Origin: a virus
Lineage: Duplodnaviria; Caudoviricetes
Length of the DNA stretch: 60,974 bases
Strand: one strand, 5' to 3'
Virus record (IMG/VR): IMGVR_UViG_3300042922_000258
Coordinates: 1-60,974 of that record
Every line of letters begins with the position of its first letter. The stretch's first letter is position 1. The notes beneath the pieces were generated by a model, which had not been told where the DNA came from, ran no database searches, and saw nothing but the letters and a program-made list of their open reading frames with translations. Below are positions 1 to 36,336 of the stretch, one piece after another. Both the position numbers and the translations under genes were made by a program.

Positions 1-126
1 AATAGGCGGTGAGAACCCCATGATAAATACATCAAATGAATATAAACAAGTCATCCTGGGTGACAATAGAAAGTTTTACGGCGGCGCAACAATTACTTTG
101 CTTGACGGCACGATTTTGACTTTGGA
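1..126 (+). repeat. Terminal overlap of a circular assembly (1-126 = 60838-60963)
   Basis: Identical sequence aataggcggtgagaacccc...gattttgactttgga at both ends. The final 11 nt (ccaaagtcaaa) are the reverse complement of the preceding tttgactttgg, i.e. a fold-back artefact. Confidence 0.95.
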
Positions 127-2245
127 TAACACCAAGATAACATCTATAAAAATTGATGATGCAACTTCGCAAAGCGGACAGTTTTCCATTGGCTCCGCAA
201 TCATAAATAGGTTAACTCTCGCCATCAATAATATGGATGACGAATATTCGGATTATGATTTTACCGATGCAGTTATCCGCCCTACAATTGGACTTCAGTT
301 GTCTTCTACTATTGAAACATTGCAAAAAGGAGTTTTCACAGCGGACGACCCAAAGGTTATCGGCTCCAGGATAAATATATCAGCTAGGGACAATATGAGT
401 AAATTTGATAAACCTTTCAAAGATGTTGTTCAAGCGTTTCCGTGTACGGCTCAAATATTACTGTCAAGCGTGTGCTTGCATTGTGGGGTTGTATTGGCGA
501 CTAATACATTCTTGAATAGTGGATTTGTTATTTCAGAAAGACCCTTGGATGATGCAATTAATTGTCGAGAGATTATCTCTTGGATAGCTCAACTCAGTGG
601 AAATTTTGCAAGATGCAATACTTCTGGCGCACTAGAATTAAAATGGTATGACTTTGAAGTGTTTGAATTGCCCAGTGCTGACGGCGGAAGGTTCGACTCA
701 GCTACGCCTTATGCAAGTGGCGATTCAGTGGATGGCGGAAATTTCACAAACTACAATTTGGGCGATACCCTTGACGGCGGTTCTTTTGTTGATACTAAAC
801 GATACCATCATATATTCCGAACATTCGGAAGTTCCACAATCTCAACTGATGATGTTGTAATCACAGGAATATCGGTCACGGAAAGCGCAGAAACCCCAAC
901 AACGGCTTTATTTGGTTCAAATGGTTATGCTATCGCCTTAGAAGGAAACAAGCTTATTCAGACACCTACGCAAGCGCAAGCCATAGCTAATTCAGTCGGC
1001 GCAAAGATAGTTGGAATGAGATTTCGACCATTGAGCATTTCAGCTTTAAGTGACCCATCAAGAGAAGCCGGGGATGTTGCTTATGTATCTGATAGAAAAG
1101 GAAATTCTTATCAGATTATCCTATCTAATGTAAATTTCGGAACACGTCAACACGACAGGATTTCTTCCGATGCAGAGCCGCCGTCAAGGAATTCAGCCAC
1201 TAGGTATTCGGCTGATAGTAAGGTTGTCATTGAGGGTAGAAAATATACGCAAGATAAAATCACAGCGTACGACTTAATGGTTCAACAACTCAATAATCTT
1301 GTAGCTCATTCGTTCGGGGTTTATAAGACCGACGTTGTTCTTCCAGATGGTTCAACTGTTTATTATATGCATGACAAGCCTACGCTTGCGGAGTCAATGA
1401 AAATCTGGAAACAGACCGCCGATGCTTTTGCGGTCAGCACCGATGGTGGAGTTACCTATACTGCCGGATTTGATGTAAATGGTAACGCAGTATTCAATGT
1501 GTTGTCGGCAATCGGGATAAATGCTGATTGGATTAGGCTTGGAAAACTGCTGTCAAATGATGGTGCGGTTTTAATTGATATGGATTATGGTGTTGCGAAC
1601 TCGGATAATTTTAGCTTCATTGATAATATCCAAGATGGATTTCCTTTGACTATGCCTTTCAATATAGATGATAGTGTTTCAAAAATCAACAAAGTACTTT
1701 TGAAATATACGCAACAAAAATTCCGAACATATTCGACCACTGCGGAAAGCGGAGGCGACTCCACATCAACAAGTACCAGTGGTGGCGGTGTCACCGTGTC
1801 AAGTTTAAGTGGAGGTGGAGGTCTTTATACCTCTACCGATATAGACGAAGGAAGTGCCTTCACAAAGTCTACATGGGATGCAAATGGTTTGGATGGTCAG
1901 CATACACATCAATTTTCTGTAAGTATTGAAGAATTACAGCACAGCCATTTAATTAATTTAAATAGTCATACACATAACGTTGTAATTCAGGACCATAGTC
2001 ACGATGTTGACATCCCTAGCCATATACACAATTTAGACTTCGGCATCATGGAGACTCCAATCACCGAAAACGAAATTCAAGTCTATGTTGATGAAACTCT
2101 TCGTTCGACAGTAACTTCCTTGCAGGGAATTATTGACTTGACGGCATGGGTTGCAACAACTGGATGGCATACAATCGAATTGAGAAGCACCGCATTAAAA
2201 CGAATATCAGCACAAATTAATATAAAGTCATACATAAGAAATTAG
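20..2245 (+). CDS. Tail tip/baseplate hub (Tal-like) protein with C-terminal HxH metal-binding fibre repeats
   Basis: Follows Dit across the circular junction; 741 aa; DGGxF x3; C-terminal HTH/HSH/HTH/HSH/HIH tripeptides typical of metal-bound trimeric fibre tips. Confidence 0.75.
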   Translation: MINTSNEYKQVILGDNRKFYGGATITLLDGTILTLDNTKITSIKIDDATSQSGQFSIGSAIINRLTLAINNMDDEYSDYDFTDAVIRPTIGLQLSSTIETLQKGVFTADDPKVIGSRINISARDNMSKFDKPFKDVVQAFPCTAQILLSSVCLHCGVVLATNTFLNSGFVISERPLDDAINCREIISWIAQLSGNFARCNTSGALELKWYDFEVFELPSADGGRFDSATPYASGDSVDGGNFTNYNLGDTLDGGSFVDTKRYHHIFRTFGSSTISTDDVVITGISVTESAETPTTALFGSNGYAIALEGNKLIQTPTQAQAIANSVGAKIVGMRFRPLSISALSDPSREAGDVAYVSDRKGNSYQIILSNVNFGTRQHDRISSDAEPPSRNSATRYSADSKVVIEGRKYTQDKITAYDLMVQQLNNLVAHSFGVYKTDVVLPDGSTVYYMHDKPTLAESMKIWKQTADAFAVSTDGGVTYTAGFDVNGNAVFNVLSAIGINADWIRLGKLLSNDGAVLIDMDYGVANSDNFSFIDNIQDGFPLTMPFNIDDSVSKINKVLLKYTQQKFRTYSTTAESGGDSTSTSTSGGGVTVSSLSGGGGLYTSTDIDEGSAFTKSTWDANGLDGQHTHQFSVSIEELQHSHLINLNSHTHNVVIQDHSHDVDIPSHIHNLDFGIMETPITENEIQVYVDETLRSTVTSLQGIIDLTAWVATTGWHTIELRSTALKRISAQINIKSYIRN

Positions 2246-2256
2246 GAGGTGGCAAC

Positions 2257-3969
2257 ATGGCAATTAGAGTAAGACGTGGAAATAAAATAGATTTCGACCC
2301 GAATAAATTACTTTCAGGCGAACCCTCGGCACCGCTTGACAGCAAAGAACTTTTTATTGCATTTGGACCTGGCGATGTAAAAAAAATAGCCACCTACGAG
2401 GACATGGTCACTAATATTGAAAACGCCACCACTGAAATCATAGCTGATTTTACTTCCGGTGCCAATGCATCCGCGAACGTTATCGATGGTGTTCTTGATG
2501 GCATTAATCATTTAATTGATGATGTATCCAGTAAATACTACAAAATGGGGTCTGCAAATGGTGAACTATATCTTGAAGAAATTGCTCCTGACCCAACACC
2601 TCCAGTCTCTGAAACTATTTTAGATGATGTTGGAGGATTGCGAGGTAGAATTGACGGTATTGATCTACAACTTGACATTGTTGAGAACAAAAGCGCAATT
2701 GACGTGTATAGCTATGGCGATGAAACAACAATAGACTGGAAAAATGCTATTGCTTTGGCTGCGACAGCAGCGGCAAACAATGGGGTTAATGCCATAAAAT
2801 TTAGAAAAGGAATTTTTCGTACATCGGAAGATTTACCCGAAGATGTGCATGTTTTTGGCGCTGGTATGGGTGAAACATATATCGATTTCGATATAACAAG
2901 TGGTAACGCTATTAGACTAAAAAGATATAATGTACGGCCAATCAAGATTTATGATTTGACGCTTCGAAATTTAAATCCTACTAATGACGTTGGCGGAATT
3001 TATGTATCCAATGACGATATATACTGGGGTACTGGAGCGGATGTGCGAAATGTTGAGTTAATCAATTTTAAAACTTTTGCAATAAAATTGAGAGGTGCTT
3101 ATAACGCAATTTTCGATCATGTAACAACATACAACGATCCTATAAACGGTTTATATATAAATACAATATTAGATATTGGTGGTATAGATACTAGTAGCTT
3201 TTCAAATCAAATAATGTTCAATCAGTGTGTTTTTCATCGTGGTCACATAGCTTATAAAAATAATAGGGGCAGTGGAATTACGTTTAACATTTGTACATTT
3301 GAAGATTTAGATTTGTTAGGAAATATAGAAAGTATTGATGTATCTCCTTGGACTTTCTTTATAGGGTGCCATTTAGAAAAAGTTAGAAAAGTATTTGTTA
3401 ATGCAAAAATGGATGAAGTAACTCTTTTGCCAATTCTGCCTTTGACTAATCACGCTTCGATGGGATTTATCAAAATGCAAGATTGTTTACCTATTGCCTT
3501 TGTTCCTGAATATGCTTTTGATAGTACGGTTGAACCAATAAATTATAAATATTTTACATATGATAAAGGTCTTTCTTTTGATGTATCTGGTACATTCACA
3601 CCAGAATGTTCTGCTACTCTTGTATCGGGAACGTTTTCTTATACTTTTCGCGTTGGCAACTATAGACGGTTAGGTGACAGAATAGATTTTGATATAAAAA
3701 TTGTTGTTGGTACAATGACTGGGGCAGAGGGTAGATTACAAATTACGGGCTTGCCGTTTGTTTCGAATGGAGAATATTTTGTATCAGTAACATCAAGTGG
3801 GTTAACATGGAATGGCACTATGCCTATTGGAATTGTTCAACACGATACGAATACTGTTAATATTTACGGTTCTTCTTCAAATGAAATATTTAACAGCGCA
3901 GATGCTTCAACATTTGGTGCAGGAGATATTATTTATGTTTATGGAAACTATAAAACTTATTCAAATTAA
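2257..3969 (+). CDS. Tailspike/receptor-binding protein with pectate-lyase-like beta-helix
   Basis: N-terminal MAIRVRRG...GEP tail-fibre attachment motif; AIKFRKGIFRT / VFGAGMGET beta-helix start; RBS ggaggt. Confidence 0.7.
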   Translation: MAIRVRRGNKIDFDPNKLLSGEPSAPLDSKELFIAFGPGDVKKIATYEDMVTNIENATTEIIADFTSGANASANVIDGVLDGINHLIDDVSSKYYKMGSANGELYLEEIAPDPTPPVSETILDDVGGLRGRIDGIDLQLDIVENKSAIDVYSYGDETTIDWKNAIALAATAAANNGVNAIKFRKGIFRTSEDLPEDVHVFGAGMGETYIDFDITSGNAIRLKRYNVRPIKIYDLTLRNLNPTNDVGGIYVSNDDIYWGTGADVRNVELINFKTFAIKLRGAYNAIFDHVTTYNDPINGLYINTILDIGGIDTSSFSNQIMFNQCVFHRGHIAYKNNRGSGITFNICTFEDLDLLGNIESIDVSPWTFFIGCHLEKVRKVFVNAKMDEVTLLPILPLTNHASMGFIKMQDCLPIAFVPEYAFDSTVEPINYKYFTYDKGLSFDVSGTFTPECSATLVSGTFSYTFRVGNYRRLGDRIDFDIKIVVGTMTGAEGRLQITGLPFVSNGEYFVSVTSSGLTWNGTMPIGIVQHDTNTVNIYGSSSNEIFNSADASTFGAGDIIYVYGNYKTYSN

Positions 3970-3997
3970 CACCAATTATTGACAGTATTATACATAT

Positions 3998-4714
3998 ATG
4001 TTAAAGTATTCTATGGAGGTGGTACAATTGTCTTTAATTTCAAAAGGTAAAAGTTTTATAGGTAAACATCCTTTTATTACTGGAGTTGTAGCAACGATTT
4101 TTAATAGAACTATTGGATTAAATAAGATTAGAATACACAAAGGTAATTCAATAATTGGCTTAAACCATAGCTTTTTTATTAAAACGAAGTTAAAAATTGT
4201 TGGCACAGGGAATACCATAAGTATTAACAAACTGGGTTATTTGAGAAATTGCTCATTTTATATTCGTGGCAATAACAATAGGATAGCAATCGGGGAGAAA
4301 ATATGTATTATTTCAGGTGATATTTACATCGAAGATAATAACAATGAAATAATTATCGGTGACTCTACTGCTATTTGTGGCTATACACACATTGCTGCTA
4401 CTGAAGGTAAAAAAGTCGTCATTGGTAGTGATTGTTTATTTTCATCCGACGTGACTATACGTACAGGTGACAGTCATTCAATAGTTGATAACGAAGGTAA
4501 AAGAATAAATCAAGCGAAAGATGTACTTATTGGTGATCGTGTTTGGATAGGAAATAAGGCTATAATATTAAAGGGTTCAGTTGTTCAATCTAATTGTATT
4601 ATAGGTTCTGGGTCCGTGGTCACTAAGGCTTTTGAAAAAAGCAACATTACCATAGCAGGGAACCCAGCTAGAGTTATTAAAGAAAATATAAACTGGCTCG
4701 TTAAGAGAATATAA
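3998..4714 (+). CDS. Hexapeptide-repeat (left-handed beta-helix) O-acetyltransferase, moron
   Basis: IGSDCLFSSDVTIRTGDSH, IGDRVWIG, IGSGSVVTK, IAGNPARVIK motifs; AT-rich; start may be the ATG at 4013. Confidence 0.9.
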   Translation: MLKYSMEVVQLSLISKGKSFIGKHPFITGVVATIFNRTIGLNKIRIHKGNSIIGLNHSFFIKTKLKIVGTGNTISINKLGYLRNCSFYIRGNNNRIAIGEKICIISGDIYIEDNNNEIIIGDSTAICGYTHIAATEGKKVVIGSDCLFSSDVTIRTGDSHSIVDNEGKRINQAKDVLIGDRVWIGNKAIILKGSVVQSNCIIGSGSVVTKAFEKSNITIAGNPARVIKENINWLVKRI

Positions 4715-4752
4715 GAATCACAACGTTATTCATTGCGGAGGCGATTTAAAAC

Positions 4753-4923
4753 ATGTCAAAATCCGAATACAAGGAAGAACAAATCAAATTTTTAAATAAA
4801 CAATTATTGGAAGTATGTATTAAGATTGGAAATTCAAAGTACGCTAAAGAATATAAGATGCTCAAGCAATTACAGGCGCAATATAAAAAGCTAATTGAAT
4901 ACTATTCAAGTGAAGATTTATAA
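4753..4923 (+). CDS. Small hypothetical protein (56 aa, MSKSEYKEEQ...)
   Basis: RBS ggaggcg, open frame, followed by a terminator. Confidence 0.5.
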   Translation: MSKSEYKEEQIKFLNKQLLEVCIKIGNSKYAKEYKMLKQLQAQYKKLIEYYSSEDL

Positions 4924-4936
4924 TATCGATACATGG

Positions 4937-5017
4937 TGAGCCAAGGACTTCAATCCTATGGCTCACTTTTTTAATAAAGAAACCCCTCAAAACCGTAAAG
5001 GCTAATGAGGGGTTATT
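4937..5017. terminator. Two adjacent hairpins terminating convergent genes
   Basis: gtgagcca...tggctcac followed by a T-run, and aacccctca...tgaggggtt. Confidence 0.7.
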
Positions 5018-5038
5018 TGTTTGTGTAATACGAATTAT

Positions 5039-5389
5039 TTATCTATTGTTTTTTGCAAATGAATATCCGGTATTGCCATCATTCGTGATTAATTCGAAGT
5101 TGAAGCAATCCAAATCATTTGAAGTCATCAACTCATTTAGTTTATCACTTTTAAGAAATCCGATAGCCAATTTATTGATTTCAGCAAAATCAGCATCATC
5201 ACATGTAATATTAATTTCAATTGCGTTATCGTGAATTTCATAACCACTAATATAATCAAACTCTGTTTCTTGAATAGATAATTCATTTATGAAATCATTT
5301 ATTGCTTGAACGTTCGCTACTTCTTGACGTTCGCCAAACATTGTAAACACCATTATCAACATAAATATACTTTTCATAAGAACCTCCAA
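5039..5389 (-). CDS. Small secreted/membrane-anchored acidic protein (moron)
   Basis: Hydrophobic N-terminus (MKSIFMLIMVFTMFG); opposite strand inside the tail operon; RBS ggagg. Confidence 0.6.
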   Translation of the reverse strand: MEVLMKSIFMLIMVFTMFGERQEVANVQAINDFINELSIQETEFDYISGYEIHDNAIEINITCDDADFAEINKLAIGFLKSDKLNELMTSNDLDCFNFELITNDGNTGYSFAKNNR

Positions 5390-5528
5390 TTGGAAACTAT
5401 TGCTAATAATTTGAATTATAATTCCAATAACATATTTTGTAAATAGTATTTACGAAATAATATAGTTTATTCTGAAAATTACAATTATGTGTGACTTTTT
5501 TACAGTAAAACAGAAAGAAGGTGAAGCC

Positions 5529-6029
5529 ATGCAATTAGAATTTATAATAAGCGGTCAAACATTAGAAAGAAAGCCGTCAGACAAACAAATTCCCGTCTCG
5601 AATTCACGCGGATACCTCAAAGCGCATTTTGCATTGACAGCAGAATTTAAAGGGTTGGTGTCTGCTTATTTTAAGATATATAAAAATGGGATTCCTTCTG
5701 GCGTCCCTGTGCCGCTTGATGATAATTTTATTTGCCAAATACCGGACGGAGTAATCACAGAAGATATGCTTTATGTATCGTTGTCATGTACAGACGGAAC
5801 ATTATTTATACCGACCAATGACGTGCTTGTTAATTTAAGCAAAAGCGGAATTCCAACTGCTCTTCTTCCCGAGCCAGACAACACCATAAATGAATATGAT
5901 AGTTTTCAGACAATGTACCAAGAAGTCAAAACGGAAGCAGATAAAATTAATCTAACCGATGATGTGACAAGCCTTAATTACAAAATTGGAATATCCAACG
6001 GTACAATATTCTTAGAAGAGGTGAATTAG
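5529..6029 (+). CDS. Baseplate/fibre adaptor (BppU-like N-terminal domain)
   Basis: RBS gaaggtga; MQLEFIISGQTLER...YLKAHF pattern; abuts the next fibre gene. Confidence 0.55.
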   Translation: MQLEFIISGQTLERKPSDKQIPVSNSRGYLKAHFALTAEFKGLVSAYFKIYKNGIPSGVPVPLDDNFICQIPDGVITEDMLYVSLSCTDGTLFIPTNDVLVNLSKSGIPTALLPEPDNTINEYDSFQTMYQEVKTEADKINLTDDVTSLNYKIGISNGTIFLEEVN

Positions 6030-7691
6030 ATGGCAGCAGGAGATAAAATATCAATAGCAACAAAAGCGTCGGTTGACGCATTGAGAACCGTTGTGCAAGA
6101 TGCGGTTGACGGAAGTATCCAAGCGGTTTTGGATAGCGAATTAGTAGCAACTGATATCGCCAATAAACTGATTGCGAAGGAACAAGAGTATGCTCCTAGG
6201 TTGACAGGTGTTGAGTCGGGATTGGCTTCAATTGCGACTGAAGTTGATACTATTGTAACGGGATTAGACAACTACTATGTGAAGTGCCTCAACACTGACA
6301 CAGGAGCCTTATTGGTTGTTGCAAGCGGAGCAATTGCAGGACAAATTAATCTATCGGCTGTATCTCCGAGAATGTCAACATATACACCTGTAGTCGGCGA
6401 TTATGTAACTAAGGCAAGCAATATATTGAATGCAGAATTGATACTTGCCAGAAATTCAGCAATAAAATCTAAAGTGTTTGGTTCTGTAGATGCGAGGCTA
6501 GAGGAAGCTGAAGCCGAAATATTGGTAAATACAACAAATATAACTAACAAGGTTGACCTCGCCATAGTCGATACCAAAACAGGCGTATCTATTCAATCTG
6601 CGGTATCCGATGATCTAATTGGAGGCGTAGAGCTTACCAAAATAGAAGGCGCAACATTAATTGCTAAACCTAATGAGAGTGCAGATATTAGTCCGGATAA
6701 TGTGGCTGTGATTACATTTTCGAGTAATTTTGATTTAGTGGCTTGCGCGAAGAATATATTAAGCGGCATGAGATCCGGTACCTATAATCCAACTACTGGG
6801 GCATACGAAAGCAATGCATCGTTAATATGTTCACAAAATATGATGCCAATTGGAAATTATGTAGCAGTAACAGTTTCAGTATCGAAAGTAGGCGCAGGTA
6901 CCAATAATATGATAGTGGCATGCTATGGCTCTAATAAAAATTATTTAGGACGAGTTATAAGCACAACTGGATGGTATGCGTTAAAGAAGCACACGTTTAA
7001 TCTGCTGCAAGGTACTGTATATATTAACCTATATGTCACAATTGATACAGTACCATTATCAGCATTAGTTCAAGTTGAATTAGGGTTTACAGCTACAATC
7101 TACGAACAATACAAATCTAATAAGATTAGCATACCATATGAACTTGCTAAACTTCCCAGTGGATTAGCCGACACAATCGAATTGGGTGTGGATGGTAAAT
7201 GGAAAAAGATACAGAGAATAGGCAAGCGGATATTAAATAGTTCGGAGGCGTGGGGAAATCAAGTGTCTGTTTTAACAAATACGTCTTTGTTTGAATGCGC
7301 TGCTAGCTTTGGTGTAAAAGCATCAGGAAGTAACAATGTCGATTTAGTATGTGATAAATTTTTACCTTTGTCTAGTTACGCAATTGACACGCAATCAATA
7401 TATACAAATCCAAGCGGTCTTTTTAGAATAAGAATAAATAAATCTTTGGCCGCTGACCCTACAGCATTTAAATCATGGCTTGCGACTAATCCAGTAACGG
7501 TGTATTACGAACTTGCAACGCCCATTGAAACCATCATATCGGATCAAACCATTGCATCGTATAAAGGAGTAACAAACATATACACCACGGCCAATCCACC
7601 CGTAACGGTGACGTCAAGGTTTAAATCCAGGCTGAGAAATGTTTATGAATTATTAGCTGCCGCAATAATTAGAATGGGAGGTACTATTTAA
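6030..7691 (+). CDS. Tail fibre/receptor-binding protein
   Basis: QVELGFTATIYEQY and WLATNPVTVYYELATP motifs common in Firmicute phage fibres; position in the tail module. Confidence 0.75.
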   Translation: MAAGDKISIATKASVDALRTVVQDAVDGSIQAVLDSELVATDIANKLIAKEQEYAPRLTGVESGLASIATEVDTIVTGLDNYYVKCLNTDTGALLVVASGAIAGQINLSAVSPRMSTYTPVVGDYVTKASNILNAELILARNSAIKSKVFGSVDARLEEAEAEILVNTTNITNKVDLAIVDTKTGVSIQSAVSDDLIGGVELTKIEGATLIAKPNESADISPDNVAVITFSSNFDLVACAKNILSGMRSGTYNPTTGAYESNASLICSQNMMPIGNYVAVTVSVSKVGAGTNNMIVACYGSNKNYLGRVISTTGWYALKKHTFNLLQGTVYINLYVTIDTVPLSALVQVELGFTATIYEQYKSNKISIPYELAKLPSGLADTIELGVDGKWKKIQRIGKRILNSSEAWGNQVSVLTNTSLFECAASFGVKASGSNNVDLVCDKFLPLSSYAIDTQSIYTNPSGLFRIRINKSLAADPTAFKSWLATNPVTVYYELATPIETIISDQTIASYKGVTNIYTTANPPVTVTSRFKSRLRNVYELLAAAIIRMGGTI

Positions 7692-7900
7692 TGTTTGATA
7701 TAAGAGAATTTATTAAAACCAATTTAATTCAAGGAGTTAAGAACGGAAGTTTTACAAGAGAATATGCCAATATTTTAGGCGTAAATTATCTTACCAAGGG
7801 GTTGGTGGCAAATGAAGATTTAGTGGAAATTGATTTAGCAACCGCGCCAGAACCGATTGAAACACTCACGGAAGAAATTCCAGAGGAAGTTATAGTTTAA
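7691..7900 (+). CDS. Small fibre-associated (chaperone-like) protein
   Basis: Translationally coupled (TAATG) to the fibre gene; 69 aa, acidic tail. Confidence 0.55.
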   Translation: MFDIREFIKTNLIQGVKNGSFTREYANILGVNYLTKGLVANEDLVEIDLATAPEPIETLTEEIPEEVIV

Positions 7901-8120
7901 TTCGCAATTGGACAATAAAGCGACAAAAATAATGTAAATAATTTGAATAAAACACTTGTAATCTTGTCTCATAATGGTATAATATGGCTACAACCATAAA
8001 AAGAAGAGGTAGGCTCTTCCCTGCGAAAGTTGTAGCCTACCTCACCATTATGACACTAGGTGCCATGGGGACATTATACACCCTCTGTGCATTTAGTGCA
8101 AGAAGGAGAGTGTATTTTTT

Positions 8121-9137
8121 ATGCCCAATTTGAGCCAAGAGATCGCAATTAACATCATCAACGAGGTAATAAAGATAGTACCGTATTTCGATGTTGATAT
8201 TCAACAGCAAGTCAAACTGAGAGATAAAATTGAAGAGCAATTAAATGATTATGAAGTTACAAGCAAATGTACAGCACTTGCAAGATGTGATATTTTGGAT
8301 AAGGCTTTTATCTATCTTGCATGTAAAAAGCTTGAAGGAATGAAAGAAACAACTCGGTACAATTATACTTTATTACTTAAGAGATTGGACGGGCATTTCA
8401 ATAAACCAATATCCACCATTACCACAATGGATTTGCGAATGTTTCTAGCAAGTGAATACAAAGATAATCAACCGAATAGTTTAAATAGCAAAATAAGCTT
8501 ATTGAAGGCTTTCTTTATTTGGCTACAAGACGAAGGGTATATAGTACAAAATCCCACCAAGAACTTACAACAAGCTAAGGAACCATACCGCAGACGAGGT
8601 CATGTAACACCAATTGATGTCGAAAAGATGCGTGAAGAATGCAAGAGTGTTCGAGATAAGGCATTATTTGAAATCTTACTGTCAACCGGATGCCGCGTAT
8701 CTGAGATTACTAATGCAACACTAGACAAGATAGATTGGCAGAATAACAGCATTGAAGTTATTGGCAAGGGTGATAAGGAACGAATGGTTTATTTCAGCAC
8801 CAGAGCGCGCTTGTTTCTGATTAATTACATATCGGATCGCGAAAAGTCCGGCATACTTAGCAACAGCTTATTTGCAGCAAGCAAGAAGCCGTATTTAAAG
8901 CTAGGGCGCAGAAGTATTGAGCGTATTATAGGCGATATAGCCGAGAGAGCCGGAATTTCATATAGCGTTTTTCCGCATTTAATGAGGCATACGTTTGCAA
9001 CAACCGGTGTCAATCAAGATGTTCCAGTACATATCTTGCAAAAATTAATGGGACATTCAAGTCCTGGAGTTACCGAGAAATATTATGATTTAAACGATAA
9101 TAACATAAAGCAAGAATATAGGAAAATAGCACTTTAA
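8121..9137 (+). CDS. XerC/D-like tyrosine recombinase (second recombinase, in the tail module)
   Basis: TGCRVSE, GKGDKER, HLMRHTFAT, LMGH, TEKYY catalytic set; N-terminal SAM-like domain; own TGnTATAAT promoter near 7975-7983. Confidence 0.92.
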   Translation: MPNLSQEIAINIINEVIKIVPYFDVDIQQQVKLRDKIEEQLNDYEVTSKCTALARCDILDKAFIYLACKKLEGMKETTRYNYTLLLKRLDGHFNKPISTITTMDLRMFLASEYKDNQPNSLNSKISLLKAFFIWLQDEGYIVQNPTKNLQQAKEPYRRRGHVTPIDVEKMREECKSVRDKALFEILLSTGCRVSEITNATLDKIDWQNNSIEVIGKGDKERMVYFSTRARLFLINYISDREKSGILSNSLFAASKKPYLKLGRRSIERIIGDIAERAGISYSVFPHLMRHTFATTGVNQDVPVHILQKLMGHSSPGVTEKYYDLNDNNIKQEYRKIAL

Positions 9138-9144
9138 AATTATG

Positions 9145-9177
9145 GAGTCGGGAGTTAAAACCTCTCGGCTCTTTTTA
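9145..9177 (+). terminator. Rho-independent terminator after the recombinase
   Basis: gagtcgggag...ctctcggctc followed by ttttt. Confidence 0.75.
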
Positions 9178-9289
9178 TATATTTAAATACTACCAAGATA
9201 TTCATTGACAGCAATCTCTTACACCTGGTCGACTTGCTTAATAACAAAACTGCAGTAATATAAAAAATACCGAAAGAAGGAACTCATAC

Positions 9290-9598
9290 ATGGCTGAATT
9301 TGTTGCAAGATATGGATTAGAAGTTTTACTTACTGGAGTTACAACTGTGCTGTCTGGAGCATGCGTATATATTTACCGTCAATTTAAGGCGATCAAGTTA
9401 GGTATGCAAGCCTCACTAAGAGACAGCATCATTACAAAATATGATAAATACATGGACAGGAAATGGATACCTATCTATGCAATGGACAATGTTGAAGCCA
9501 TGTATAAGCAGTACCATGCATTAGGTGGAAACGGAACAATAACAGATTTATACAAGGAACTATTGGAATTGCCACATAGAAAAGAGGATATCAAATGA
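9290..9598 (+). CDS. Holin-like membrane protein
   Basis: One N-terminal TM helix; Y..YHALGGNG motif typical of Firmicute lysis-module proteins. Confidence 0.7.
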   Translation: MAEFVARYGLEVLLTGVTTVLSGACVYIYRQFKAIKLGMQASLRDSIITKYDKYMDRKWIPIYAMDNVEAMYKQYHALGGNGTITDLYKELLELPHRKEDIK

Positions 9599-9774
9599 AA
9601 GAAAAATTAGCGAAGTTGATTAATGTTAAGAGCCTAGTAACACTCATATTGACGGCGGTTTTTAGTTTTCTAGCTGTCAAAGGAGAAATTTCCGGTCAAG
9701 AGTTTATCGGGATATTTACAATGATAATTGCTTTTTATTTTGGTACTCAATCTGTTAAAAAAGAAGGTGAATAA
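9595..9774 (+). CDS. Small two-TM holin (59 aa; not in the ORF track)
   Basis: MKEKLAKLINVKSLVTLILTAVFSFLAVKGEISGQEFIGIFTMIIAFYFGTQSVKKEGE; lies between the holin and the endolysin. Confidence 0.8.
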   Translation: MKEKLAKLINVKSLVTLILTAVFSFLAVKGEISGQEFIGIFTMIIAFYFGTQSVKKEGE

Positions 9775-9776
9775 TT

Positions 9777-10463
9777 ATGGCTAGAGACATGACAAAGCTG
9801 CATCCAAAGGTTCAAGACCTTGCTGTCAAGCTAGTTGCTGAATGTGAGAAAATCGGATTACATATCAAAATTACTGATTGTGTTCGTTCCAAGGAAGAGC
9901 AAAACGGAATTAACGCAAGCCGTACGAATTGTAAGTTCCCATCATCTTATCATAATTGGGGATTGGCTTTTGATTTCTGCCGATACGAAGACGTTGATAA
10001 AGATGGAAAGATTTCCGATGATGCTTATAACGATAAGGGAGATTTCTTCCGTAAAGTTGGGCAAGTTGGAAAATCCATTGGGTTAGGTTGGGGTGGAGAT
10101 TTTAAGAGTCTTTACGATGGTCCGCATATGGAATATAAGGGATTGGGAACTCGCTCTCAAATTGAAGCAAAATATAGAACACCTGAAAACTTCTTTAGGT
10201 CATTCGCAATGGCTAAGCCAACAAAGACTATCACAAAGGATTCTCCCGAAGAGGAAATCAGATGGCTTCAACACAATCTCAACCAAGCCATGCAAGACTA
10301 TTCTGACTACAATCCAATTAAAGAGGATGGAAAATATGGCGGTCAATCTAAAAAGGCTGTACGGTCATTCTGGACGCTTCAGGGATGGAATAGGCTTGGA
10401 TTAGATAAAGGTGATAGGTGCGGAATGAAAACCATTAATCGCCTTGACAGCATCACTAAATAA
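9777..10463 (+). CDS. Endolysin, M15 family L-Ala-D-Glu peptidase with C-terminal PG-binding region
   Basis: RSKEEQ, SYHNWGLAFD, WGGDF, DGPHME motifs. Confidence 0.9.
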   Translation: MARDMTKLHPKVQDLAVKLVAECEKIGLHIKITDCVRSKEEQNGINASRTNCKFPSSYHNWGLAFDFCRYEDVDKDGKISDDAYNDKGDFFRKVGQVGKSIGLGWGGDFKSLYDGPHMEYKGLGTRSQIEAKYRTPENFFRSFAMAKPTKTITKDSPEEEIRWLQHNLNQAMQDYSDYNPIKEDGKYGGQSKKAVRSFWTLQGWNRLGLDKGDRCGMKTINRLDSITK

Positions 10464-32358: not shown

Positions 32359-33588
32359 ATGATATACTTGAAATACGAATATCTAGACTATAAATATACG
32401 ACTTATTATAATGAGACCCTTAATTTGTGGGTTTCTGCAATCAACATGGGCAAGGATACTTTTGGAAAAAGAAAACGCAAAGTACTATACGGAGACACCG
32501 AAAAGGATGTTATTAAAAAAGCAAATTCAATTATAATTGACATGAATAATGGAGATTATATGGAACCAAACAAGGATTCCCTTATATGCTTCTTAAAGGA
32601 ATACCACAGAATTAGAGCCGGATGCGATATGTGGAAACCAAACTATAAAATGCCGGAAGACGCTAAATGGGAAGAAAACACAGCTTTGCTGAACAAAATG
32701 TATATTGACGTTCACTTCGAACCTTATTTTAAGGAAATAAAACTTACCGATATTAAACCGGTCACACTGGACAAGTTTTATAATTATAAACTATCAACAC
32801 CGGGTGAATATGAAGTTATGATAAAAGGCAAAAAGGTAAAAAAGGAACGTCCTCCGCTTAGCATGAATACCGTTATTAAGTTGGATAAGTTTCTCAAATC
32901 ATCCTTTTACTATGCTATAAAAAATGGGATGTTGAAAAATAACCCAACGACTGGAGTTGTCGTTCTTGGCAAGAAGAAAAAATATAAGCCAACCGTATTC
33001 AATAAGGAACAGTTTTTAAAACTACTTCAATCGGTTGAGGGCACGGATGATGAAATCCCTATTATTTTAGGTGGAGGATGCGGCCTTAGACGAGGGGAAA
33101 TATTCGGGCTTAAATGGGAAAATGTTGATTTTGATTCCGGTACGATTACAATTGAAAACACAATGATAAGATTTAAGAGCACGAAAGATAAAGATGGTGC
33201 TAAGAATGAACAAAGCGCAAGAACTATAATTATTCCAAAATATGTTTTGGACACATTAAATAATTATAAAATTAAAATAAGCCCAAATGATGCTGACAAG
33301 ATTATAACAAGGTGGAAACCTGGAAGCTACTCAGAACGGTACGGCATATTATTAGACCGCTTCGATTTACCTCATACAAGATTGCATGACCTACGTCACT
33401 ACAATGCAGTTATTATGATGAATAAGGGCATTCCGGATAAGGCCGCAGCAGAATTTTTAGGCCATAAAGATACGCAGATGCTACACGATGTATACCAGCA
33501 TGTCCAAGAAGAAATGAAACAGAAAACAGCTGATACCATTAATGAAATGTTTAAAAAGAAAAATAGCCATGAACCCCGGGAAGAGTAG
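32359..33588 (+). CDS. int: Phage integrase (tyrosine recombinase)
   Basis: GLRRGE, HDLRH, LGH, VYQH; adjacent attP. Confidence 0.93.
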   Translation: MIYLKYEYLDYKYTTYYNETLNLWVSAINMGKDTFGKRKRKVLYGDTEKDVIKKANSIIIDMNNGDYMEPNKDSLICFLKEYHRIRAGCDMWKPNYKMPEDAKWEENTALLNKMYIDVHFEPYFKEIKLTDIKPVTLDKFYNYKLSTPGEYEVMIKGKKVKKERPPLSMNTVIKLDKFLKSSFYYAIKNGMLKNNPTTGVVVLGKKKKYKPTVFNKEQFLKLLQSVEGTDDEIPIILGGGCGLRRGEIFGLKWENVDFDSGTITIENTMIRFKSTKDKDGAKNEQSARTIIIPKYVLDTLNNYKIKISPNDADKIITRWKPGSYSERYGILLDRFDLPHTRLHDLRHYNAVIMMNKGIPDKAAAEFLGHKDTQMLHDVYQHVQEEMKQKTADTINEMFKKKNSHEPREE

Positions 33589-35451: not shown

Positions 35452-36336
35452 ATGGTATTAGGGTGTGATATAGGAAACCAATTTATAAAAGATAGCCAGC
35501 ATAAGATTTTTAAATCGTGTTTTACTTATCAAGACACATCACTATCAGATATAAATAAAATTACAATCGATGGATTGGACCACTTCTTTGGAGTTGGAAA
35601 TCCTACTGTCGATATAGATAAAATAGACGCGCCAATAAACAAAATAGGTATACTATCAAGCATTGCAATGTGTGGCTCGAATGAATATTACATAGTGGTT
35701 GGACTGCCGATTACTCAATACAAGGCAAAGAAGGAACGACTCCGCAATATGGTAATGTCGTACAATGGATGCGATATAATTTACAATGGGAGGAAAATTA
35801 ATTATCACATTAGGGACGTTGGGGTTTGTCCGCAGGGAATTGGAGCACTATACACTATCAATTCTTCCAGCGATAGAATACTTTTCGATATAGGAAGCTA
35901 CACAATAAATGTGGCATTAATTGAATATTCAAATGGAAATCCCAAGATAATTAAATCCGACACCTGGTATAGCGGCGTGCTCAATTTATATCAGAGAGTA
36001 ATTGAAGAGATTAATCGAAAATTTGACTTAACATTAAAACCAAGTTACGCAGAAAAAGTCTTATCAACTGGTGAACTTTCCATTGACGGCAGCCCTTGCG
36101 ATTTGAAGTTTTTGAAACCAATTATTTCAGATTATCTGGATCCGGTGTTTACTCAATTCAAGCTTAAGTACGATGAATACAAAACGGTCCCAACTACTTT
36201 AATCGGTGGAGGGGCGGAATTATTACACGGAGCCTTCGAACGGACCGTAAAGAACTGTGAGATCATAGAAGACTCACAATTCGCAAACGCCTTGGGGTAC
36301 CATCGTTATGGTATAGATAAATTTATATGCAGATAA
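35452..36336 (+). CDS. ParM/StbA-family actin-like ATPase
   Basis: GCDIGN, VVGLP, PQG, FDIGSYTIN, IGGGA, SQFANALGY actin-fold motifs. Confidence 0.9.
   Translation: MVLGCDIGNQFIKDSQHKIFKSCFTYQDTSLSDINKITIDGLDHFFGVGNPTVDIDKIDAPINKIGILSSIAMCGSNEYYIVVGLPITQYKAKKERLRNMVMSYNGCDIIYNGRKINYHIRDVGVCPQGIGALYTINSSSDRILFDIGSYTINVALIEYSNGNPKIIKSDTWYSGVLNLYQRVIEEINRKFDLTLKPSYAEKVLSTGELSIDGSPCDLKFLKPIISDYLDPVFTQFKLKYDEYKTVPTTLIGGGAELLHGAFERTVKNCEIIEDSQFANALGYHRYGIDKFICR

What the first reader, a model, noticed from the sequence alone, without database searches (positions are those of the whole stretch)
6215..9137. Tail-fibre cassette bounded by two recombination-site-like palindromes next to a dedicated Xer-like recombinase
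Seen: 6215-6238 gtcgggatt-ggcttc-aattgcgac lies inside the fibre gene, right after the short N-terminal anchor (...EYAPRLTGVESGLASIAT). 7901-7924 ttcgcaatt-ggacaa-taaagcgac follows the stop of the small chaperone gene and reads in-frame SQLDNKAT, a ghost of the same peptide. The two share 14 of 24 nt (TCG..ATTGG........GCGAC), are in direct orientation, and look like 9-bp arms around a 6-bp spacer. The recombinase promoter and gene start immediately after the second site. Established: tyrosine recombinases act on arm-spacer-arm sites, and the phage already has a separate integrase. Inference: an integron-like system that excises or swaps the fibre C-terminus plus chaperone, fusing new receptor-binding modules to a constant N-terminus. 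This differs from the invertible Gin/Cin or shufflon arrangements. The spacers differ, so exchange would have to tolerate mismatch or be rare.
Basis: partly seen in the sequence, partly recalled or inferred. Interest (0 to 1): 0.75.

Follow-up and report, generated by a model that had tools for sequence, protein, structure and literature searches.

The report
One-cassette phage tail-fibre shufflon
A soil phage carries a small DNA-recombining enzyme beside its tail-fibre gene, with two short target sites bracketing the host-recognition part of the fibre; this is an unusual one-cassette variant of a known switch that lets phages change which bacteria they attach to.

Summary
Inside this window their likeness is at chance level (14/24; 76 places do as well). 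Other genomes rescue them. The second site recurs next to homologous recombinases, and in 6 of 7 loci it abuts the stop codon of the last tail gene. It matches L008 at 22/24 although synonymous sites of the recombinase genes are saturated. In-gene copies sit at the anchor/distal junction of unrelated fibre genes. In relative L083, two inverted copies (27/28 nt; 9-6-9 layout) flank two convergent fibre C-terminal cassettes beside a homologous recombinase. L070 has four alternating copies of a different repeat. The locus is therefore a Rin-like tyrosine-recombinase fibre shufflon, a kind described in Bifidobacterium prophages in 2018. It has only one cassette, two direct sites with different spacers and no inverted partner, and the three closest relatives share this layout. 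The integron-like excision/swap idea is neither shown nor excluded. The recombinase is an intact Xer-like accessory enzyme under purifying selection. It has its own promoter and terminator and a conserved structured ~135-nt leader RNA (20 of 87 sources, strong covariation, no Rfam match). No reaction was observed: only assembled contigs of one run were available.

The parts
6030..7691 (+). Tail-fibre gene (553 aa). Codons 1-61 form the N-terminal anchor and the rest is the distal, receptor-side part.
   Evidence: PHROG tail fiber phrog_6782, 1.3e-18, for aa 335-533. Homologue P0122 matches aa 61-542 but has a different N-terminus, which is a fusion with a homologue of ORF 5487-6029.
6215..6238 (+). 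Site 1, in-gene recombination-site candidate: GTCGGGATT-GGCTTC-AATTGCGAC (codons 62-70, ESGLASIAT). The right arm is the well-conserved one.
   Evidence: Site profile hit on the + strand, E 0.022 (this site is a seed). The L008 fibre-like gene has the same TTGGC.TCAATTGCGAC at its N-terminus: 19/24 identical against flanks of 20/90 and 22/90.
7691..7900 (+).
   Evidence: No Pfam or PHROG family. No likeness to small ORFs in relatives.
7901..7924 (+). Site 2, non-coding 'ghost' of the fibre hinge motif: TTCGCAATT-GGACAA-TAAAGCGAC. The left arm is the well-conserved one. It starts 0 nt after the stop codon.
   Evidence: Conserved in L008 (22/24; 0/300 shuffles), L007, L061 and L075. It abuts the upstream stop codon in 6 of 7 loci.
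7956..7983 (+). Promoter of the recombinase module (TTGTAA, 16 nt, TATAAT, with TG).
   Evidence: 10 of 12. The -10 and -35 elements align in L007, L087 and L008. DNA homology with L004/L007 starts at 7975.
7984..8120 (+). Conserved structured leader. P1 pairs 8006-8015 with 8034-8043; P2 pairs 8054-8063 with 8089-8098, with an inner P3 and an ATTATAC loop. The SD (GGAG) is at 8105-8108.
   Evidence: Fold z-score -4.87. Covariance model hits directly upstream of the recombinase in 20 of 87 sources and 1 of 100 further sources. 92% of cells paired and 24 of 25 pairs with double changes. G.U 26 against A.C 2 in P2+P3. No Rfam match.
8121..9137 (+). Xer-like tyrosine recombinase (338 aa), an accessory enzyme and not the phage integrase.
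   Evidence: PF00589 1.8e-31. Closest to XerA/XerC/XerD but below all curated cut-offs. The catalytic R, K, H-x-x-R, H and Y motifs align with XerD. pN 0.13-0.24 against pS 0.84-0.88 versus L007, L087 and L008.
9144..9172 (+). Terminator-like hairpin that closes the recombinase module.
   Evidence: DNA homology with L004 ends at 9145.

Best explanation
The locus is a Rin-like, tyrosine-recombinase tail-fibre recombination module (shufflon family) in a one-cassette state.

The Xer-like recombinase (8121-9137) is made from its own promoter through a structured leader. It most likely recognises 24-bp sites of 9-bp arm, 6-bp spacer and 9-bp arm. One site lies in frame at the junction between the fibre's N-terminal anchor and its distal part (6215-6238). 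The other lies directly after the stop of the last gene of the bracketed segment (7901-7924).

In relatives, site copies of this kind in inverted orientation flank alternative fibre C-terminal cassettes, so inversion changes the receptor-binding end. In this phage the two sites are direct, their spacers differ (GGCTTC and GGACAA), and there is no inverted partner or second cassette. Inversion is therefore impossible, and self-deletion should be disfavoured. The system is either idle or works only between DNA molecules.

Shown: the sites, their conservation, their link to the recombinase family, the intact enzyme under selection, and the shufflon layout in relatives.
Inferred: that this enzyme cuts these sites, and what the outcome is in this phage.
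For: 1. Site 2 is conserved beside homologous recombinases although neutral DNA is randomised (pS 0.84-0.88). Identities are 22/24 with L008 (0/300 shuffles), 19/24 with L007 (3/300), 19/24 with L061 (9/300) and 18/24 with L075 (11/300). The pattern matches L008 perfectly. IMG/VR-wide, the exact motif occurs only in the L007 and L008 contigs plus one unrelated GC-rich sequence.
2. Position is regular. The gap from the upstream stop codon to the site is 0, 3, -10, 4, 0, 0 nt in 6 of 7 loci and 31 nt in L008. In 5 of 7 loci the site ends 171-276 nt before the recombinase ATG.
3. In-gene copies are islands of identity at the anchor/distal junction of otherwise unrelated fibres. L007 against L084 is 22/24, with flanks of 30/90 and 27/90. 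The window against L008 is 19/24, with flanks of 20/90 and 22/90.
4. L083 (recombinase 35% identical; complete phage with terminal repeats) has copies at 6157 (+, fibre aa 242) and 7803 (-). They share 19 exact nt and 27/28 overall. They flank two convergent ORFs with tail-fibre PHROG hits, and the second ORF is in frame from the site.
5. L070 (38% identical) has 4 copies of another ~20-nt repeat in alternating orientation, the last just before the recombinase promoter.
6. A tail gene lies upstream of the recombinase in 8 of 8 loci checked, and lysis genes lie downstream in 7 of 8.
7. The enzyme is accessory. 29 of the 44 relatives' records searched, and the window itself, carry a further tyrosine recombinase or a serine recombinase, and several provirus records carry a large serine recombinase at one end.
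8. The published Rin shufflon has the same direct pair of sites and an armless Xer-like invertase distinct from the integrase (PMC6109161, passages read).
Against: - No rearrangement was observed. The single run that holds the locus is kept as contigs and shows no joints.
- Within the window the two sites are no more alike than chance.
- The window has no inverted copy and no alternative cassette, so the defining shufflon reaction cannot occur here.
- Only 2 of about 84 relatives' loci were shown to have inverted arrays. The scan was not exhaustive, and the L070 repeat has a different sequence.
- Conservation of the in-gene sites could partly reflect a conserved hinge peptide. Identical third codon positions are 7 of 8 for L007/L084 but only 4 of 6 for window/L008 (my count).
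- Many relatives at 39-48% identity, including phiCp-D and the Clostridium botulinum-like group, show no such site with my profile.
- L057's site match is not significant.
Confidence: 0.55

Rival explanations
1. Cassette exchange or capture. The two direct sites have different spacers and so do not recombine with each other. Each can recombine with its like in a co-resident phage, prophage or excised circle, replacing the fibre's distal part plus the small ORF on a constant anchor.
For: - The window, L007, L008 and (degenerate) L087 all keep one cassette, two direct sites and an intact recombinase under purifying selection, while their fibres are unrelated.
- In-gene spacers start GGC (GGCTTC, GGCATC, GGCCGA, GGCTGA). 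Post-gene spacers start GGA (GGACAA; GGATTA three times, in L007, L008 and L057; GGATAA; GGATGA).
- L007 and L008 share an identical post-gene left arm and spacer.
- Fibre homology breaks near the in-gene site in two comparisons.
Against: - No hybrid junction, circle or pair of backbones differing only in the cassette was seen.
- P0122's homology ends at aa 542, not at site 2.
- The in-gene spacer is constrained by coding, so the spacer difference needs no selection.
- Ordinary homologous recombination at a conserved hinge would also give breaks there.
Confidence: 0.15
2. Multimer resolution or cyclisation, Cre/loxP-like. The recombinase acts on site 2 alone to resolve dimers of a plasmid-like prophage or to circularise incoming DNA. 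The in-gene copy is only a conserved hinge-coding motif.
For: - The window encodes a ParM-like partition protein at 35452-36336 (PHROG partition protein, 4.8e-39).
- Homologous recombinases sit in phage-plasmids. Clostridium phage phiCp-D has ParM and no other recombinase. A 48.5-kb circular Clostridium botulinum plasmid has ParM/StbA and the same tail-recombinase-holin order.
- Site 2 lies close upstream of the gene, as resolution sites often do (recalled).
Against: - This does not explain why the site abuts the last tail gene's stop codon.
- It does not explain why the gene always follows tail-fibre genes.
- It does not explain why L083 uses the same motif as inverted repeats around fibre cassettes.
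- ParM homologues were found in only 6 of the 44 other records searched.
- The window also has a canonical integrase.
Confidence: 0.15
3. No working system. The 24-mers are a common tail-fibre hinge motif plus a decayed remnant of it, and mosaicism arises by homologous recombination. The recombinase is a moron-like or second integrase gene with an unrelated target.
For: - Within-window likeness is at chance level.
- The motif codes for a hinge peptide seen in many fibre genes (SQLAEKAS-like).
- The looser pattern occurs in 79 IMG/VR stretches, most of them in unrelated GC-richer contigs.
Against: - A decaying non-coding remnant would not stay 19-22/24 identical where synonymous sites are saturated.
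- It would not keep a fixed place relative to both the stop codon and the recombinase.
- L083 and L070 show organised repeat arrays beside the enzyme.
Confidence: 0.1

Closest known systems
Rin shufflon of Bifidobacterium prophages (Mavrich et al. 2018, PMC6109161). Also reported in Eggerthella lenta prophages (PMC8778435). A tail-fibre shufflon flanked by a recombinase is reported in BV01-like Bacteroidaceae phages (PMC13596623). I read passages of all three papers.
   Same: - An armless, Xer-like tyrosine recombinase lies beside the fibre/RBP locus and is distinct from the phage integrase.
- One short site lies inside the gene at the constant/variable junction.
- A direct copy lies immediately after the 3' end.
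- Relatives L083 and L070 have inverted copies with alternative C-terminal cassettes.
   Different: - The window has no inverted site and only one cassette, which is large (about 480 aa plus a 69-aa ORF, against 95-100-aa Rv genes).
- The sites are 24-bp 9-6-9 quasi-palindromes, whereas the repeat reported for Rin is an asymmetric 11-bp sequence.
- The genome is low-GC (37%) with Clostridia-like relatives.
- The enzyme has a conserved structured leader RNA.
- Sequence relatedness to Rin itself was not tested.
R64/IncI plasmid shufflon (Rci recombinase, sfx sites)
   Same: - A tyrosine recombinase acts on short sites inside the C-terminal coding part of an adhesin gene.
- In the window and L008, each site has one well-conserved arm and one poor arm. 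This is as recalled for sfx; I did not check it in a paper.
   Different: - That system acts on a pilus tip adhesin, not a phage fibre, and has many inverted sites.
- Here there are two direct sites.
- Membership in the Rci family was not tested.
Gin (Mu), Cin (P1) and Min (p15B) fibre inversion systems
   Same: - They switch the fibre C-terminus, together with an assembly gene, next to a dedicated recombinase.
- L083's two convergent cassettes resemble the G/C-segment layout.
   Different: Those enzymes are serine invertases. The window has no PF00239 match, and its enzyme is a tyrosine recombinase.
Integrons (IntI with attI/attC)
   Same: The idea of a recombinase next to a site where promoterless cassettes are exchanged.
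   Different: - Integron-integrase models score far below their cut-offs.
- No attC-type folded sites or cassette array were found.
- The site lies in frame inside a gene.
Xer/dif and Cre/loxP resolution systems
   Same: - The closest sequence and structure relatives are XerA, XerD and XerC.
- The site layout is arm, 6-bp spacer, arm.
- A ParM-type partition gene is present in the phage.
   Different: - The enzyme is below the XerA/C/D equivalog cut-offs and has an extra N-terminal part of about 64 aa.
- The gene is tied to tail-fibre genes.
- The sites overlap fibre coding sequence.

Membership tests
Rin-type phage tail-fibre shufflon | Armless (Xer-like) tyrosine recombinase gene flanking the fibre/RBP locus, separate from the phage integrase | tested here: met
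   PF00589 plus SAM-like core-binding domains only. Best matches are XerA/C/D. A second, 409-aa integrase lies at 32359-33588.
Rin-type phage tail-fibre shufflon | Short repeated site inside the fibre gene at the constant/variable junction, plus a direct copy right after the 3' end | tested here: met
   Site 1 is at codons 62-70 and site 2 starts 0 nt after the stop of the last bracketed ORF. Both lie on the + strand by profile. L007 and L008 have the same layout, and L087 has a degenerate form of it.
Rin-type phage tail-fibre shufflon | Further sites in inverted orientation, each heading an alternative C-terminal cassette | tested here: not met
   No further profile hit anywhere in the window at E up to 10. 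No minus-strand ORF of 50 aa or more lies between 6769 and 8037. The feature is met in relatives L083 and L070.
Rin-type phage tail-fibre shufflon | Rearranged variants seen among genomes or reads | tested here: inconclusive
   One DNA run holds the locus, as assembled contigs only. No joints were seen, and contigs drop rare variants.
Serine-invertase fibre switches (Gin/Cin/Min) | Serine recombinase (resolvase/invertase domain PF00239) | tested here: not met
   0 matches in the window's record.
Integron | IntI-type integrase scoring above the family cut-off | tested here: not met
   TIGR02249 scores 49 bits against a cut-off of 265. NF011946 scores 28.2 against 435.
Integron | attC-type folded cassette sites and a cassette array | not tested
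   No array of cassettes is present. Folding of the sites as attC was not examined.
Xer/dif dimer resolution | XerC, XerD, XerA or XerS equivalog score | tested here: not met
   XerA 181.6 against 220, XerC 160.3 against 335, XerD 159.1 against 330, XerS 89.3 against 267.
Xer/dif dimer resolution | One dif-like site per replicon, acted on in dimers | tested here: inconclusive
   Site 2 could serve. A ParM-like gene is present. No functional data exist.
R64-type shufflon (Rci/sfx) | Rci-family recombinase with multiple inverted sfx sites | not tested
   No Rci profile or sequence was compared. The window's sites are direct.

The most novel reading that the evidence does not exclude
This is a natural recombinase-mediated cassette-exchange system. 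Two heterospecific sites bracket the receptor-binding module: an in-frame site at the fibre hinge and a site abutting the cassette's stop codon. The module is therefore stable within one genome. The phage's own Xer-like enzyme can swap it cleanly between co-resident phages or prophages, with enzyme dosage set by a new structured leader RNA.
Probability: 0.15. Interest if true: 0.85.

Novelty: new variant of a known kind. Interest (0 to 1): 0.6.

Why it matters
[quoted passage not shown] The known ones are serine-invertase switches, diversity-generating retroelements, and tyrosine-recombinase (Rin) shufflons, which my searches found reported only for Actinobacteria and Bacteroidaceae phages.

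This locus adds four things:
- It extends the tyrosine-recombinase type to low-GC, Clostridia-like phages.
- It gives a defined 24-bp site with arm-spacer-arm layout that can be tested directly.
- It shows a recurring one-cassette layout with direct, unlike-spacer sites that cannot invert. That raises the question of whether such enzymes also mediate exchange between genomes.
- It reveals a conserved structured RNA in front of the recombinase gene that is absent from Rfam. This is a candidate regulator of a site-specific recombinase.

Tried and rejected
- Chance reading: my first reading, from within-window statistics, was that the sites are chance. I dropped it after the cross-genome results.
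- Phage DNA search: a search of 5400-9300 against GenBank phages found no match.
- Rfam: a scan of 5000-10000 at E up to 1 found nothing.
- Fibre protein scan: a scan of IMG/VR found no relative.
- Metagenome scan with the recombinase profile: this gave only distant relatives (37% identity or less), so no extra close loci.
- Sequencing runs: one DNA holder was listed, kept as contigs, and no RNA holder was listed. Laying it showed no joints and gave no support either way.
- Looser site pattern: CGCAATTGGNNNNNNAAGCGNC hit 79 IMG/VR stretches, mostly unrelated GC-richer contigs, so it is too unspecific to use.
- Leader ORF: an ORF from 7985 runs across the leader, but L007 has an early stop there.
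- Third site copy: GAGTCGGGA after the recombinase (about 9145) is part of the terminator hairpin and is absent in relatives.
- 12-nt inverted match 9029-9040 with 9303-9314: about as expected by chance, and it would break two genes.
- Guide-RNA idea: I compared the leader loops with the site by eye only. I saw short same-sense similarities and no convincing complementarity, so this was not pursued.
- Small ORFs next to the sites show no mutual likeness.
- Supplements: the supplementary files of the papers cited could not be seen, and they may hold site and recombinase sequences of Rin loci.
Full report
**What the window is.** The window is one whole IMG/VR virus record (60,974 bp, estimated 98% complete) with 37% G+C. 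Structural genes run from about 44.9 kb to the end and continue at 20-7900 on the + strand. The order at the locus is:
- a fibre gene at 6030-7691 (PHROG tail fiber);
- a 69-aa ORF at 7691-7900 with no family;
- a 338-aa tyrosine recombinase at 8121-9137 (PF00589, 1.8e-31);
- two small ORFs, then an M15 endolysin at 9777-10463.

A second, 409-aa tyrosine integrase lies at 32359-33588, and a ParM-like partition gene lies at 35452-36336.

**The observation.** Both 24-mers are exactly as quoted. They share 14 of 24 positions, and their 9-nt arms are complementary at 7/9 and 5/9. Taken alone this is not remarkable. 76 positions in the window match site 1 at 14/24 or better, and site 2 matches better when reversed (15/24). 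118 of 60,951 24-mers have arms at 7/9 or better. The significant result is circular, because the pattern was built from the two sites.

**Conservation of site 2 in other genomes.**
This gave a perfect match in L008 (recombinase 63% identical), in the equivalent place.
- The 10-mer TCGCAATTGG occurs exactly 8 times on the recombinase strand and once on the other strand across these loci.
- Two profile searches placed related 24-mers just upstream of the recombinase in the window, L008, L007, L061, L075, L057 and L083. Seeds match by construction. The non-seed hits of the first profile were weak (L084 at 0.015; L057 at 0.41; L083 at 0.58 and 1.9).
- A shuffle test of the window's upstream region against those of relatives gave 22/24 for L008 (0/300), 19/24 for L007 (3/300), 19/24 for L061 (9/300), 18/24 for L075 (11/300) and 17/24 for L057 (159/300, not significant).
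- An exact IUPAC scan of all IMG/VR found the motif only in the L007 and L008 contigs, plus one unrelated 54-56% G+C sequence present in three contigs.
- Synonymous sites of the recombinase genes are saturated between these phages (pS 0.84-0.88). A non-coding 24-mer kept at 19-22/24 is therefore under selection.
- Placement is regular. The site starts 0, 3, -10, 4, 0 and 0 nt from the stop codon of the preceding ORF in 6 of 7 loci, and 31 nt in L008. In 5 of 7 loci it ends 171-276 nt before the recombinase ATG.

**The in-gene copies.** Read in frame, site 2 gives SQLDNKAT. This is a ghost of a hinge motif found inside the N-terminal part of fibre genes in these loci:
- AAQLAEKAS in L007;
- TAQLAEKAS in L084;
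- SSQMDEKAN in L046;
- TAQMDHIA in L083;
- SADLASIAT in L008;
- ESGLASIAT in the window.

These copies are islands of DNA identity. L007 against L084 is 22/24, with flanks of 30/90 and 27/90. The window against L008 is 19/24, with flanks of 20/90 and 22/90. Part of this may be peptide conservation. Third codon positions agree in 7 of 8 and 4 of 6 codons respectively (my count).

Fibre homology in relatives breaks near the in-gene site. P0122 (53% identical) matches the window's fibre from aa 61 to 542, and its N-terminus is a homologue of ORF 5487-6029. L007 and L087 share only aa 1-106, with the site at aa 80-88. At the 3' side, P0122's homology ends before the fibre's stop, not at site 2.

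**What the sites do in relatives.**
- L083 comes from a phage with terminal repeats, estimated complete, and its recombinase is 35% identical. An independent exact-repeat scan found a 19-nt inverted repeat at 6157-6175 and 7785-7803, extending to 27 of 28 nt.
- That repeat reads TGCGCAAAT-GGACCA-(A/T)ATTGCGCA: 9-nt arms matching 8/9, around an identical 6-nt spacer.
- The first copy lies at aa 242 of a 563-aa fibre gene. The second heads a convergent 225-aa ORF that is in frame from the site. Both ORFs hit tail-fibre PHROGs, and the recombinase gene starts about 60 nt further on. This is a two-cassette invertible fibre.
- L070 (38% identical) has four copies of a different ~20-nt repeat at 4770(-), 5986(+), 6676(-) and 7880(+). 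The last lies just before the recombinase promoter, among short ORFs of alternating strand and a 300-nt duplicated fibre segment.

**The recombinase.**
- It is closest to XerA, XerC and XerD but below every curated cut-off.
- It aligns with XerD through the catalytic R, K, H-x-x-R, H and Y motifs (the XerD residue roles are recalled).
- It has about 64 extra N-terminal residues with no family.
- It evolves under purifying selection (pN 0.13-0.24).
- It is an accessory enzyme. Of 44 records holding relatives, 20 have further tyrosine recombinases and 23 of 45 have a serine recombinase. In several proviruses a 500-550-aa serine recombinase sits at one end.
- In all 8 loci whose neighbours I checked, a tail gene lies upstream of the recombinase. 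In 7 of 8, lysis genes lie downstream. The loci are the window, L007, L087, L008, L083, phiCp-D, TPELB_ph1 and a Clostridium botulinum phage-plasmid.

**The module and its leader.** DNA homology with the closest relative (L004/L007, 76% aa identity) covers only 7975-9145, which is the -10 box, leader, gene and the start of the terminator. Everything else is unrelated. The promoter (7956-7983) and terminator (9144-9172) are given.
- The leader folds much better than shuffles (z -4.87).
- A covariance model, iterated once, finds it ending at the recombinase start in 20 of 87 sources and in 1 of 100 more distant ones. That count includes the window and two duplicate pairs.
- On 11 sequences, 92.3% of cells pair (66% in shuffles; 37-48% when slid), and 24 of 25 pairs show double changes. 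The alignment is fitted to the model, which favours it.
- On 19 sequences, P2+P3 have 26 G.U against 2 A.C, which points to RNA on the sense strand. P1 has 173 Watson-Crick pairs, 0 G.U and 3 C.A. I cannot explain this.
- The 3' arm of P1 is pyrimidine-rich, and in the window's lowest-energy fold it pairs with the SD region instead. That suggests a translational switch; this is an inference.
- Rfam has no match.
- In the one run that holds the locus, the leader contig has depth 84 against about 15-19 beside it. Several genomes in that sample therefore share it.

**What this means for this phage.** Both sites are on the + strand by an asymmetric profile, so they are direct repeats. Their spacers differ (GGCTTC and GGACAA). 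Each has one good arm: the right arm of site 1 and the left arm of site 2. There is no third copy and no inverted cassette. Inversion between them, if forced, would put a stop directly after the anchor (read).

L007 and L008 have the same layout with unrelated fibres, and L087 has a degenerate form of it. The one-cassette state is therefore recurrent, not a one-off decay. In these loci in-gene spacers start GGC and post-gene spacers start GGA, but the in-gene spacer is also constrained by coding.

My reading is a Rin-like module whose enzyme recognises these sites (confidence 0.55). Its outcome in this phage is open: idle, rare exchange with other genomes, or capture of cassettes.

**Rivals.**
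- Cre/loxP-like resolution at site 2 in a ParM-bearing prophage (0.15). This is supported by phage-plasmid relatives but does not explain the tie to fibre genes or L083.
- A hinge motif plus a relic with an unrelated recombinase (0.1). This is hard to square.

**Comparison with print.**
- Mavrich et al. 2018 (PMC6109161; abstract and passages read) describe Rin. It is an Xer-like, armless tyrosine invertase beside RBP constant and variable genes, with 11-bp sites. There are two directly oriented sites, one within the gene and a second immediately following its 3' end, plus inverted ones.
- Rin is also reported in Eggerthella lenta prophages (PMC8778435; passages).
- A multi-cassette fibre shufflon flanked by a recombinase is reported in BV01-like phages (PMC13596623; passages).
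- My four shufflon and fibre-inversion searches turned up no description of such a system in Clostridia-like phages, of a one-cassette form, or of a leader RNA. This is a limited search of open-access text.

**Limits.** No reaction was observed. Close homologues seen only as proteins (P0002-P0062) could not be placed on DNA. The site profile is built from few sequences. Relatedness to Rin proteins was not tested.

Noticed in passing
window 7984-8120; also L007 7860-8006, L087 9864-10006, L008 4448-4592 and 15 more loci: A conserved structured leader lies upstream of the recombinase gene: two hairpins, an ATTATAC loop and strong covariation. It has no Rfam family. P1 has no G.U pair in 178 cells, while P2+P3 have 26.
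   Followed up: yes
window 35452-36336 and 32359-33588: A ParM-like partition gene and a canonical 409-aa tyrosine integrase occur in the same phage. The prophage may be plasmid-borne, integrated, or capable of both.
   Followed up: partly
window 5487-6029 and 6030-7691: Homologue P0122 (740 aa) fuses a copy of ORF 5487-6029 (its aa 1-138) to the fibre from aa 61 on, and adds a 114-aa C-terminal domain that the window lacks. The likely true start of ORF 5487 is the ATG at 5529.
   Followed up: partly
L057 6060-7142: A reverse transcriptase gene (PHROG, 8.8e-133) lies just upstream of the recombinase homologue. This may be a diversity-generating retroelement beside a recombinase module.
   Followed up: no
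L027 7084-7107 and 7600-7639; L017 6833-6856 and 7342-7381: The Clostridium botulinum-like prophage group (recombinase 46-48% identical) lacks the window's site. It has a 40-nt palindrome (AAAACACTGTATTATTCAAA/TTTGAATTTTACAGTGTTTT) and an inverted partial copy about 490 nt away, upstream of the recombinase.
   Followed up: no
L029 6865-7013 and 7439-7587: A perfect 149-nt inverted repeat flanks 425 nt, a few hundred nt upstream of a recombinase homologue.
   Followed up: no
L084 7919-7989, L073 7848-7918, L082 7842-7910: Short repeated palindromic boxes (such as TATAAGTTATATAAC, twice, about 55 nt apart) lie directly upstream of recombinase homologues that lack the leader. They may be operators.
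   Followed up: no
L087 9122-9811: An HNH endonuclease gene is inserted between the tail genes and the recombinase module in the 69%-identical relative.
   Followed up: no
window 3998-4714: A hexapeptide-repeat (acetyltransferase-like) ORF lies within the tail gene block.
   Followed up: no
window 7949 and 9598 (run X1): Contigs of the same sample diverge from the window before 7949 and after 9598. The 30 letters before 7949 still resemble the right arm of site 2 and the -35 region, so a related phage is present in the sample.
   Followed up: partly
L007, L008, L087, L084 and L046 fibre-like genes (C-termini): By eye, the last tail gene in these relatives ends in motifs that look like an SGNH/GDSL esterase block (such as DTVHFNTAG). 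L008's hit a PHROG 'lipase'. The window's fibre has a different C-terminus.
   Followed up: no
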